Source: Trypanosoma brucei
Taxonomy: Eukaryota
Direction: 5' to 3'
Length of the DNA stretch: 64,000 bases
Assembly (NCBI GenBank): GCA_000002445.1
Contig: CM000208.1
Coordinates: forward strand, 1 to 64,000
In this document: in pieces, positions 3,155-5,589 of the stretch
Position numbering within the stretch: position 1 is the stretch's first letter
Layout: each line of letters starts with the position of its first letter
Position numbers and translations under genes: made by a program
Notes under the pieces: model-generated
What the model saw: only the letters and a program-made list of their open reading frames with translations
The model's database searches: none
Told to the model about the DNA's origin: nothing

Positions 3155-5589
3155 AATTTTTGTTTTTTTGACTGCCGACAGACTTGCTTGGCAACGCGCC
3201 GTTGCTGCTTTCTTGCCAAGCGCTTAAGCTTAGCAGGTTGAAGTTGCAACGTTCAGTGTTCCCGTCTTTTATCTTCAGGCCGCTGGGGTCTCTTGTAGTT
3301 TCATGGTGTCAAATTTCGGGTGCCGTTTGCTGGTCTTTTACTTGAGAGCCAATTTCCAGGAATTCGTCGAGTCTGCCTTTAAGGTAGCCTGTGCTGGTTG
3401 CCGGCTGCAAAATCTCCTTTTGCTGTGGTCGTCATAGGTTGCTGTCGTATTTTGCCTTCCGTTTGGCGTAGAATGCCTCAAGCAGCTTCGGTCGTTCTAT
3501 CTGTGCAGCAGAAACATTGCTGGCTGCGTATATTGTCATTTTGAGTAGTTGGTTTGTGAGTGCGTCGGGTCTTTGCCCGCTTGTTTTTACAATTTTTCCC
3601 GTTTTAACTGGTATATTGCCGAGGTTGTCGGATGCTGTGCACATGTTTTACCATGGATTCCTAGTTTGCGCTTGCTGTGCTGCCGCTTGCCTTTTAACGT
3701 TTAAGTTGGCTAGAACTGGGTTCGGAAACGGCGCTAGCACGTGCTCTTAGTTGTTTGGCTGCCTGCTCGCTGCTTGTTCACTGCGATCGTCCGGCGTGTC
3801 AGTGTCTTGATTGCCCTTCGCGTCGGGCGTTTTAATTTTGGTCTGTACATCTCTCTTGTCCAAAGTTTCGCGTCCTATGCTGGTTGCTGAATCTTTGTCT
3901 CTCTATGTGTCTCCTCGTTGCTTAGTATGTTGTCGGAACAGAATTGCGTCACCAGCCACCGCAGCAAGTTGGTTCACCGGCTGCTTGGTACGGTCAGTCC
4001 TGTGAAAAAGTGCTCTCAGTTTTATTGAGGCTTGGACTGCGCTGCAGTAACAGCTCTATTAACTTTTTTGTTCCACAAAAGTGAGCTTAAAAGTTTTTCA
4101 ATTTTGTACGTCATTTGAGTAGCTGCTTAATTGCGCGGTCCGGTGCTAAAATATCGGGTCCTGCTTGCTGTTGCCTTAGAAATCAGTCTTTGCCTTTTTG
4201 CGTTGTCTGCGGCTCCCCGCGGGATAACAAATTAATTAGCAAGAAAGCTGGAGATCTGTTCAGATTTTTTGATGGAGGTAGGCACCTGTTAATGCCGCTG
4301 TGTTGCCATATCACAGGGTCTCGTCACTGTCTGTGCTTTGCTTAGATATAACAAGTGCTGCGGCAGCGGCGTTAGCGCTGAATGCTTGCTCGGTGCGTTG
4401 TGTGTCTATGGCTACGCTGTTTTTACTTACCTCCAGTTTTTGAGGATCTTTTGTGCCAGGTTCTGTTCCGGTCTGGGTGTGCTGCGCAATTGAGTCGGCT
4501 GGCTTTGAGCTCGCGCCGCGCCTTATCATCCCTTTATTTCGTCGGCGGCAGTTTTGTTTCGCTGTTTGCTGTGTGTTGTAGCCGTAATTTTCAGTCTAAA
4601 CGCCGTTGTGTTAGCCATTAAAACTTTTAGCTTCTGCTGAACTTCCTTTATTATTATTGCTTAGCTTAAATTTATCGATAAAGAAATACGTAAGGAAGAT
4701 GTAACACTTATAGTAAATAGCCAATATTTATTGGCTACTCTCTTCTAAAATAAAATTATATTGAACTTCTGTAAGTTAATTCAATTATGATGTATCAAAT
4801 CCTTCATGTAGACACGGTGTTTACACATTTCCCTGTCTTTGTTCTAGAAAAAAAAACAGACTGGAAACTATCTAATACATTTTCTAACTCTCCTCAGTAA
4901 AAGGGAAACTAAGGATCAGTGTTCCTGCATTATCTTGAGATGAAGAAACTCTTTTATATTTTACTTCTCTTTGTAGTTCATGAGCTTTAATTCGTTTTTT
5001 GATGTTTTTAAAAATACTATGGTTCCTTGGTGCGCGGTTATAATGGCGGCTGCACTGATGAGGTAGCCGGTCGCCTGTCGTCGCCAGTCGTCAAGTTTTT
5101 AATTTTTGTAAGAGCTTAATTTTAGACACATTATACGAGTGTCGCCAGCTAAATTATATGTATCAGGTTTCTATTTATCAATAGAAATGTTTTGCATAAA
5201 AATCTTTCACACTTTAAATATATCTTTGGGTCATTTGTCAATGGTGAACTCAGTTGCCTGTCGCTTGTACCTTTTCTTTCCTTTCGTTATATCTACTTCA
5301 CTTGCCCCGTGTAATAGACTTTATGTCGCCGTTGTTGATCTATCTATCATCCTCGTGTGCATGATAATGCCTATCCCCATATTCATGTTTCAAACTGTAC
5401 ATACTGCATTTTTTCCTCAATCTCTTAATATCTTTTTGCTTTCCTCGAAAAATATTCCGGTTGTTATCTCTCAATCACTCAAAATTTTCGTATCGCTTAC
5501 TCCCAGAGACCCTGCCCGGCTGGGTAAAGGTATAAAGTTTTGCCGTGAATATAGTCCCTATCATCAGTCACTTTATCATGTCCGGATGC

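What the first reader, a model, noticed from the sequence alone, without database searches (positions are those of the whole stretch)
3155..5589. Non-canonical expression-site architecture: 2.4 kb VSG-upstream region is the best place to look for a monocistronic (metacyclic-type) promoter
The VSG is telomeric, carries the 16-mer and has 70-bp repeats upstream. However, the array is short (~0.8 kb). The 58 kb upstream contains none of the canonical bloodstream ESAGs; only an ESAG1-like gene is present. The rest is ingi, RIME, RHS and pseudogenes. This resembles the layout reported for metacyclic VSG expression sites, where the promoter sits in the 1-2 kb between the 70-bp remnant and the VSG. 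I could not recognise a promoter by eye.
Basis: inference. Interest (0 to 1): 0.5.

Follow-up and report, generated by a model that had tools for sequence, protein, structure and literature searches.

The report
Known telomeric VSG 10.1 donor site
This is the already described left end of Trypanosoma brucei TREU927 chromosome 10, a silent, metacyclic-type telomeric site holding the VSG 10.1 donor gene; the 2.4 kb flagged as the likely promoter location is a VSG pseudogene remnant plus AT-rich spacer with no recognisable promoter.

Summary
There is no ESAG6/7, no bloodstream-promoter sequence and no 50-bp repeats in 64 kb.

The VSG is 458/458 identical to EAN77445.1 and the ESAG1 is identical to EAN77446.1, both on TREU927 chromosome 10. 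This is the donor copy of VSG 10.1. As I recall it, LaCount et al. 2001 already described this site as resembling a metacyclic expression site; I could not retrieve that paper.

The metacyclic-type reading gains support. The ESAG1 is 94% identical to a GenBank "metacyclic expression site-associated" ESAG1, against 63% or less for other family members. Lister 427 carries mVSG-397 at the same chromosome end.

The specific claim is not supported. 3243-3695 is an A-type VSG pseudogene fragment, 3696-4620 is VSG-like but non-coding, and 4621-5589 is AT-rich. Nothing there exceeds chance similarity to published promoter cores. The only box-1-like match (13/15) lies at 7677-7691, upstream of the 70-bp array, and is weak (p about 0.03). 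The finding is already known and of low interest.

The parts
1..619 (.). Telomere repeats, (CCCTAA)n as read on the + strand, marking the physical left end of the chromosome
   Evidence: TRF period 6, 103 copies, 95% matches; sequence
620..1711 (-). Telomere-proximal AT-rich spacer and VSG 3' flank/UTR, with the conserved VSG 16-mer at 1663-1678
   Evidence: Exact single match to TGATATATTTTAACAC, 0 expected; composition
1712..3088 (-). Intact VSG gene, the donor (basic) copy of VSG 10.1, 458 aa
   Evidence: 458/458 identity to EAN77445.1/XP_822273.1 of TREU927 on the 4,054,025-bp contig. 456/458 to AAK21259.2 'VSG 10.1'.
3243..3695 (-). Fragment of an A-type VSG pseudogene (N-terminal domain, Pfam profile positions 11-161 of 367) with three in-frame stops, directly upstream of VSG 10.1
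   Evidence: Pfam PF00913 Trypan_glycop, E 1.5e-14, on the frame-0 translation residues 336-486
3696..4620 (-). Non-coding stretch with VSG-gene-like composition (GC about 0.45-0.50, strong AT skew) and stops in all three frames; probably the decayed 5' part or flank of the pseudogene cassette
   Evidence: Composition profile; translations; no Pfam hit
4621..5589 (.). AT-rich (GC about 0.30-0.40) unique spacer between the 70-bp array and the VSG-like sequence; no repeat, RNA family or promoter-core match
5590..6400 (-). Short 70-bp repeat array, ten copies
   Evidence: TRF periods 69-84; ten core matches between 5659 and 6388
7677..7691 (-). Weak candidate box-1-like element, CCTATAAGGCGACCA. 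It matches 13/15 positions of the box shared by the published BES (CCTATTACCACACCA) and MES-653 (CCTATAACCCGACCA) promoter-core primers. It lies 1.3 kb upstream of the 70-bp array and 4.6 kb upstream of the VSG ATG.
   Evidence: Primers from PMC8034637 Table S3. It is the only match in the window at 2 mismatches or fewer, but 0.56 are expected by chance. It is the top hit in the ESAG1-VSG interval; the next best are 11/15.
10624..11595 (-). Intact ESAG1 gene on the same strand as the VSG
   Evidence: Pfam PF03238, E 2.3e-117. 100% identical to EAN77446.1. 94% identical to AAA30193.1 'metacyclic expression site-associated ESAG1'. Next relatives are 63% or less.
13394..18106 (-). Full-length ingi retroelement ORF, marking the upstream limit of the ES-like unit
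   Evidence: Pfam Exo_endo_phos, RVT_1, RNase_H and zf-C2H2

Best explanation
The window is the left telomere of T. brucei TREU927 chromosome 10. It carries the silent donor ('basic') copy of VSG 10.1 in a metacyclic-type, ESAG-poor telomeric site: ESAG1, 4.2 kb of unique DNA, ten 70-bp repeats, a 2.5-kb 5' flank, the VSG, then the telomere.

The flagged interval 3155-5589 is the VSG's 5' flank. It would be co-transposed if a gene conversion began in the 70-bp repeats. It consists of an AT-rich spacer and the remnant of an earlier A-type VSG. I infer that this earlier VSG was partly overwritten when VSG 10.1 was copied in.

The site works as a recombination donor. The 70-bp repeats supply the upstream homology and the conserved VSG 3' end supplies the downstream homology. 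Conversion into a bloodstream expression site produced the expressed copy (AF335471, two amino-acid differences).

If the site also keeps a metacyclic Pol I promoter, as positional orthology with metacyclic sites in other strains suggests, that promoter most likely lies upstream of the 70-bp array. This fits a site that is conserved between strains while its VSG differs. The only candidate is the box-1-like element at 7677-7691, and it is weak.

Shown here: identity of the locus, its anatomy, absence of BES features, and the pseudogene content of the interval. Inferred: the recombination history, the existence of a promoter, and its position.
For: Locus identity:
- VSG 458/458 to EAN77445.1 and ESAG1 100% to EAN77446.1. 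Both are on the 4.05-Mb TREU927 contig and carry consecutive accessions.
- The expressed copy sits in the sequenced TREU927 BES, GenBank AC087700 and AF335471 (PMC9352583), and differs at 2 aa.

Metacyclic-type character:
- ESAG1 is 94% identical to 'metacyclic expression site-associated' AAA30193.1, against 63% or less for other ESAG1s.
- In Lister 427, mVSG-397 is at Chr10_5A:2444-3994(-), the same end, orientation and distance from the end.
- In EATRO1125, three mVSG telomeric contigs are placed on chromosome 10.

No BES features.

Content of the interval: pseudogene hit E 1.5e-14; composition; no repeats or RNA families.

Promoter-core comparison: best match inside the interval is 11/15, against 13/15 at 7677-7691.
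Against: No complete metacyclic promoter sequence could be retrieved. Ginger 2002, Kolev 2017, Cross 2014 and LaCount 2001 are not held. The promoter test therefore rests on one 19-nt MES primer and one 20-nt BES primer.

The 13/15 match is expected 0.56 times per window by chance. It becomes suggestive (about 0.03) only after restricting to the correct strand and interval.

The TbSAP paper says MES promoters are 'normally within 1-2 kb of the telomeric VSG'. That would place the promoter inside 3155-5589. At least one metacyclic site (MVAT7, from memory) has its promoter inside the duplicated unit.

Synteny with 427 Chr10_5A is inferred from names and positions, not from a sequence alignment.
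Confidence: 0.7

Rival explanations
1. One reading: the site is a metacyclic expression site whose Pol I promoter lies inside 3155-5589, between the 70-bp repeats and the VSG. The promoter would then travel with the VSG when the cassette is duplicated.
For: Published statement that MES promoters are normally within 1-2 kb of the telomeric VSG, and that eight Lister 427 MES VSGs lie less than 4 kb from a putative promoter (PMC8034637). The interval spans 0.07-2.5 kb upstream of the ATG. From memory, the MVAT7 promoter was co-duplicated with its VSG (Kim and Donelson 1997).
Against: 3243-3695 is a VSG pseudogene and 3696-4620 is VSG-like, leaving about 1 kb of AT-rich DNA. The best box-1-like match is 11/15, at 3438, inside the pseudogene, and is no better than three others in 7.5 kb. 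No match to the MES-653 or BES core primers at up to 4 mismatches. A promoter downstream of the 70-bp repeats would be replaced at each VSG conversion, which fits poorly with a site conserved across strains that carry different VSGs.
Confidence: 0.17
2. A promoterless silent telomeric VSG: a decayed former expression site that now serves only as a donor for gene conversion, with no stage-specific transcription of its own.
For: VSG 10.1 is known as a bloodstream VSG expressed from a duplicated copy in a BES (PMC9352583). No statistically convincing promoter element was found anywhere in the 7.5 kb between ESAG1 and the VSG. VSG 10.1 transcripts were not seen in ESB1-overexpressing TREU927 procyclics.
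Against: Positional orthology with active metacyclic sites in Lister 427 (mVSG-397) and probably EATRO1125 and WRATat. An intact ESAG1 and an intact VSG argue against general decay. The failure to find a promoter reflects missing reference sequences rather than a strong negative.
Confidence: 0.25
3. A bloodstream expression site with an unusually long or rearranged body, whose ESAG7/6 and promoter lie further upstream than the 64-kb window.
For: ESAG1 followed by 70-bp repeats and a VSG is also the terminal arrangement of bloodstream sites. Bloodstream promoters lie 30-60 kb upstream.
Against: No ESAG2-12-type Pfam hits, no ESAG6/7 (tblastn E 0.59 or worse), no BES promoter or upstream primers, and no 50-bp repeats in 64 kb. 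The upstream DNA is ingi, RHS and VSG pseudogenes, which is typical of subtelomeric arrays.
Confidence: 0.03

Closest known systems
VSG 10.1 donor telomere of T. brucei TREU927/4 GUTat 10.1 (LaCount et al. 2001, Nucleic Acids Res 29:2012; chromosome 10 of the Berriman et al. 2005 genome)
   Same: It is this locus. The VSG and ESAG1 are identical to EAN77445.1 and EAN77446.1. The expressed BES copy differs at 2 aa. From memory, the paper already states that the donor site resembles metacyclic VSG expression sites.
   Different: Nothing detectable. The paper itself could not be read here, so I cannot say whether the authors annotated a promoter.
Metacyclic VSG expression sites (ILTat 1.22/1.61/1.63/1.64; MVAT4/5/7; Lister 427 mVSG-397, 531, 639, 653, 1954)
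   Same: Telomeric single VSG, no ESAGs between the 70-bp repeats and the VSG, a short 70-bp tract, an ESAG1 and retroelements upstream, and the same chromosome end as Lister 427 mVSG-397.
   Different: No verified promoter. The candidate box is 4.6 kb from the ATG, whereas eight Lister 427 sites have theirs less than 4 kb away. VSG 10.1 is documented as a bloodstream VSG, not as a metacyclic one.
Bloodstream VSG expression sites (for example Lister 427 BES1; TREU927 BES AC087700)
   Same: The terminal module is ESAG1, 70-bp repeats, a co-transposed region (sometimes with a VSG pseudogene), the VSG with its 16-mer, then the telomere.
   Different: No ESAG7/6, no other ESAGs, no BES promoter, no 50-bp repeats; the 70-bp array is only 0.8 kb.

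Membership tests
Metacyclic VSG expression site (MES) | Single intact VSG with the conserved 3' 16-mer immediately next to the telomere and reading towards it | tested here: met
   VSG at 1712-3088(-), 16-mer at 1663-1678(-), telomere repeats at 1-619
Metacyclic VSG expression site (MES) | Monocistronic layout, with no ESAGs between the promoter region and the VSG, and a short 70-bp repeat tract | tested here: met
   No ORF of 80 aa or more with a family hit between 3089 and 10623 other than the VSG pseudogene fragment. Ten repeats, about 0.8 kb. 'Short tracts' is the published norm.
Metacyclic VSG expression site (MES) | MES-type two-box Pol I promoter a few kb upstream of the VSG | tested here: inconclusive
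   Only one 19-nt MES-653 core primer and one 20-nt BES core primer were available. There is one 13/15 box-1-like match at 7677-7691, with 0.56 expected per window. Nothing better than 11/15 lies inside 3155-5589.
Metacyclic VSG expression site (MES) | Transcription of the VSG in situ in salivary-gland metacyclic forms | not testable with these tools
   No TREU927 metacyclic transcript or transcription-start data were accessible. Literature searches for the gene identifiers found nothing.
Metacyclic VSG expression site (MES) | Positional orthology to a characterised MES in other isolates | tested here: met
   ESAG1 is 94% identical to 'metacyclic expression site-associated' AAA30193.1, with 63% or less to other family members. 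Lister 427 mVSG-397 is at Chr10_5A:2444-3994(-). This rests on protein identity and published coordinates, not on a DNA alignment.
Bloodstream VSG expression site (BES) | BES promoter followed by ESAG7 and ESAG6 | tested here: not met
   BES core and upstream primers absent at up to 4 mismatches. ESAG6/7 tblastn best E 0.59. The test covers only the 64 kb of the window.
Bloodstream VSG expression site (BES) | Set of ESAGs (2-5, 8, 11 and others) and an upstream 50-bp repeat array | tested here: not met
   Pfam on 20 ORFs of 150 aa or more finds only ESAG1, ingi, RHS and VSG_B. TRF finds no 50-bp array. Several ESAG families have no Pfam model, so this is not exhaustive.

The most novel reading that the evidence does not exclude
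This telomere is a functional metacyclic expression site in TREU927. Its promoter lies upstream of the 70-bp repeat array at about 7620-7691, 4.5 kb from the VSG and outside the co-transposed unit. The genome strain's bloodstream VSG 10.1 would then itself be a metacyclic VSG re-expressed by duplication, as described for MVAT5. The A-type VSG remnant at 3243-3695 would be the trace of the previous resident metacyclic VSG.
Probability: 0.3. Interest if true: 0.3.

Novelty: already known. Interest (0 to 1): 0.15.

Why it matters
It matters little beyond annotation. The locus and its metacyclic-like layout were published in 2001 and form part of the reference genome.

Pinning down the promoter would have modest value. 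It would add a TREU927 member to the small set of mapped metacyclic promoters. It would also show whether the promoter sits outside the recombining VSG cassette, which bears on how metacyclic sites keep their identity while exchanging VSGs.

Tried and rejected
1. Retrieving reference promoter sequences. LaCount 2001, Ginger 2002, Kolev 2017, Cross 2014 and Ramey-Butler 2015 are not held. A text search for the BES core sequence found no trypanosome paper. Only the ChIP primers from PMC8034637 were usable.

2. Fetching orthologous or paralogous loci.
- The TREU927 genome is not in the contig index.
- The four reachable ESAG1 loci of T. b. equiperdum and T. equiperdum (L001-L004) are internal arrays. 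They have no box-1-like element and share no homology with 6400-10200.
- An ESAG7 search gave only one contig-bearing hit, on TREU927, which is not in the contig index.

3. CCCTGTGAT occurs twice on the VSG strand (4310, 9179). This is not significant: 0.51 expected, and 8% of shuffles reach 2.

4. A possible solitary degenerate 70-bp repeat at 4648-4668 turned out to be only a TTA run. Its alignment score is within the shuffle range.

5. A BES promoter sequence recalled from memory, of which only the first 20 nt are verified against a primer, gives no above-background local alignment anywhere. Its TTACAG..GGTT match at about 9207 scores below random top hits.

6. I tested whether the pseudogene remnant derives from EATRO1125 mVSG3 or mVSG4. 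There is no similarity apart from the shared VSG 3' end.

7. Lister 427 mVSG qPCR primers and MES-653 targeting primers gave no meaningful matches.

8. Rfam found no RNA family in 1-12000.

9. The bacterial-type promoter scan was not used, because it is irrelevant to trypanosome Pol I promoters.

Full report
**What is in the sequence**

- The window begins with 103 copies of TAACCC at 1-619. It therefore starts at a chromosome end.
- On the minus strand, reading towards that end, is an intact 458-aa VSG with ATG at 3088 and stop at 1712.
- The conserved VSG 16-mer, TGATATATTTTAACAC, is present once and exactly at 1663-1678.
- Upstream lie ten 70-bp repeats: core matches from 5659 to 6388, array about 5590-6400.
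- The flagged interval 3155-5589 is exactly the DNA between the VSG and that array. Its lower bound is the end of the mechanical ORF, 66 nt above the real ATG.
- Further upstream on the same strand are an intact ESAG1 at 10624-11595 (Pfam E 2e-117) and a full-length ingi at 13394-18106. Beyond these are VSG_B pseudogenes, RHS fragments and a broken ingi.
- No 50-bp repeat array is present.
- ESAG6/7, using a sequence verified against PDB 6SOY, has no tblastn hit better than E = 0.59.
- Published ChIP primers for the BES promoter core, for the regions 150, 200 and 600 bp upstream of it, and for ESAG6/7 (PMC8034637 Table S3) do not match the window at up to 4 mismatches.

**Which locus this is**

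- The VSG is 458/458 identical to EAN77445.1/XP_822273.1 of T. brucei TREU927, on a 4,054,025-bp contig.
- The ESAG1 is 100% identical to EAN77446.1, the next accession on the same contig.
- The VSG is 456/458 identical to AAK21259.2, 'VSG 10.1'.
- According to PMC9352583, the single sequenced TREU927 bloodstream expression site is assembled from GenBank AC087700 plus AF335471 (the VSG), citing LaCount et al. [quoted passage not shown]
- The window is therefore the chromosome 10 telomere that holds the donor copy of VSG 10.1.
- I could not retrieve that paper. From memory, its abstract states that the telomere-linked donor resembles metacyclic VSG expression sites.

**Evidence that the site is metacyclic-type**

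- The window's ESAG1 falls in the same 90% cluster as AAA30193.1, named 'metacyclic expression site-associated (ESAG1-U1EC)'. It is 94% identical to it. The next closest of 42 ESAG1 relatives are 63% or less. This is an ortholog-level relationship to an ESAG1 recorded at a metacyclic site in another isolate.
- In Lister 427, mVSG-397 is annotated at Chr10_5A_Tb427v10:2444-3994 on the minus strand (PMC8034637 Supplementary File 2). That is the same end of the same chromosome, with the same orientation and a similar distance from the end.
- In EATRO1125, telomeric contigs carrying mVSG3 (VSG-4862), mVSG5 and mVSG7 are placed on pseudo-chromosome 10 (PMC8483307 S1 Table). For VSG-4862 a linked metacyclic promoter was reported (PMC8509897).
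- These points support the general interpretation.

**What the flagged interval contains**

- From 3155 to about 4620 the composition is that of a VSG gene: GC 0.45-0.50 and AT skew about -0.25 to -0.48, the same as VSG 10.1 itself. All three sense frames carry stops.
- One frame, window 3243-3695, matches the A-type VSG N-terminal domain (PF00913, profile positions 11-161 of 367, E 1.5e-14) and has three in-frame stops.
- A truncated older VSG therefore abuts the 5' flank of VSG 10.1. I infer that VSG 10.1 was copied in by a conversion whose upstream end fell inside the previous resident gene.
- From 4621 to 5589 the DNA is AT-rich (GC 0.30-0.40) and unique. It shows no similarity to the rest of the window, no significant repeats and no Rfam family.

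**The promoter test**

- No complete metacyclic promoter sequence was obtainable. The usable references were two published 'promoter core' primers: BES ATATCCCTATTACCACACCA and MES-653 CCTATAACCCGACCAAATA.
- These two share a 15-nt box, CCTATWACCMSACCA, at 12/15 identity.
- On the VSG strand between the ESAG1 stop and the VSG ATG, the best match is 13/15 at 7677-7691 (CCTATAAGGCGACCA). The next best are four matches at 11/15. One of these, at 3438, is the best inside the flagged interval, and it lies in the pseudogene.
- The 13/15 site is the only match in the whole window on either strand. However, 0.56 such matches are expected by chance, and 43% of shuffles have at least one.
- Restricting to the correct strand and the 7.5-kb interval gives an expectation of about 0.03. 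That is suggestive, not conclusive.
- A longer BES promoter sequence recalled from memory gave no above-background alignment anywhere. The motif CCCTGTGAT, seen twice, is not significant.
- In short, the interval contains no recognisable promoter element, and the only candidate lies 1.3 kb upstream of the 70-bp array.

**How the site most likely works**

- Shown: it is a silent telomeric VSG cassette flanked upstream by 70-bp repeats and downstream by the conserved VSG 3' end. A second, nearly identical copy exists in a bloodstream expression site.
- Established knowledge: such cassettes are copied into the active site by gene conversion that starts in the 70-bp repeats.
- Inferred: the same chromosome end carries different VSGs in three strains (10.1, 397 and probably 4862) while the ESAG1 is conserved. 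Any promoter that defines the site as metacyclic should therefore lie upstream of the recombination boundary, that is, upstream of the 70-bp repeats.
- Against this, the TbSAP paper states that metacyclic promoters are normally within 1-2 kb of the VSG. From memory, MVAT7 carries its promoter inside the duplicated unit.
- A promoterless donor site also remains possible (about 0.25). A bloodstream site with a far-upstream promoter is very unlikely (about 0.03).

**Verdict**

The specific proposal that 3155-5589 harbours the promoter is not supported. Interest is low. The decisive step is a simple alignment against mapped metacyclic promoters and the orthologous Lister 427 and EATRO1125 chromosome ends, plus unique-read mapping of metacyclic RNA and Pol I/CITFA ChIP data.

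Noticed in passing
window 1712-3088 (-): The expressed bloodstream copy of VSG 10.1 (AAK21259.2) differs from this donor copy at two residues: A207 in the donor versus E, and K427 versus R. This recalls the point mutations reported with VSG duplicative transposition, but it could equally be a sequencing or allelic difference.
   Followed up: partly
window 1712-3088 (-): VSG 10.1 gives no Pfam hit at all at E up to 1, although UniProt labels the identical protein 'B-VSG' and its C-terminus is typical of a VSG.
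   Followed up: no
window 27855-28664 (-): A 269-aa ATG-initiated ORF with a signal-peptide-like N-terminus, a long Gly/Glu/Ser/Thr-rich low-complexity body and a hydrophobic C-terminal tail (GPI-signal-like). It has no Pfam family. It may be a surface-protein gene or pseudogene.
   Followed up: no
window 13394-18106 (-) and 38669-45358 (-): One apparently intact ingi ORF of 1570 aa with endonuclease, reverse transcriptase, RNase H and zinc-finger domains. A second, frame-broken ingi is inserted next to or within an RHS gene fragment.
   Followed up: partly
window 20376-21295 (-) and 48529-49972 (-): Two B-type VSG pseudogenes split over several frames, with no 16-mer nearby. They are typical subtelomeric array remnants.
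   Followed up: partly
window 181-330 and about 1465-1540: Variant or degenerate telomere repeats inside the terminal tract, such as GCTAACCCTGAGCC and CCCGAGGGGGTGCC. A separate degenerate telomere-like block (CTAACCACCCTAACTATCCTACC...) lies between the VSG 3' end and the telomere.
   Followed up: no
window 46149-47856 (+): Two adjacent plus-strand ORFs (294 and 233 aa) with Cys/His-rich zinc-finger-like motifs and no Pfam hit. They may be a degenerate ingi-related element in the opposite orientation.
   Followed up: no
window 9165-9215 (-): The sequence GGTTACAGTGGGGGTTCCCTGTGATTGCTTAATGGCAC resembles part of a BES promoter as I recalled it (TTACAGGGGAGGTT). The recalled sequence is unverified, and the match scores below random background.
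   Followed up: yes
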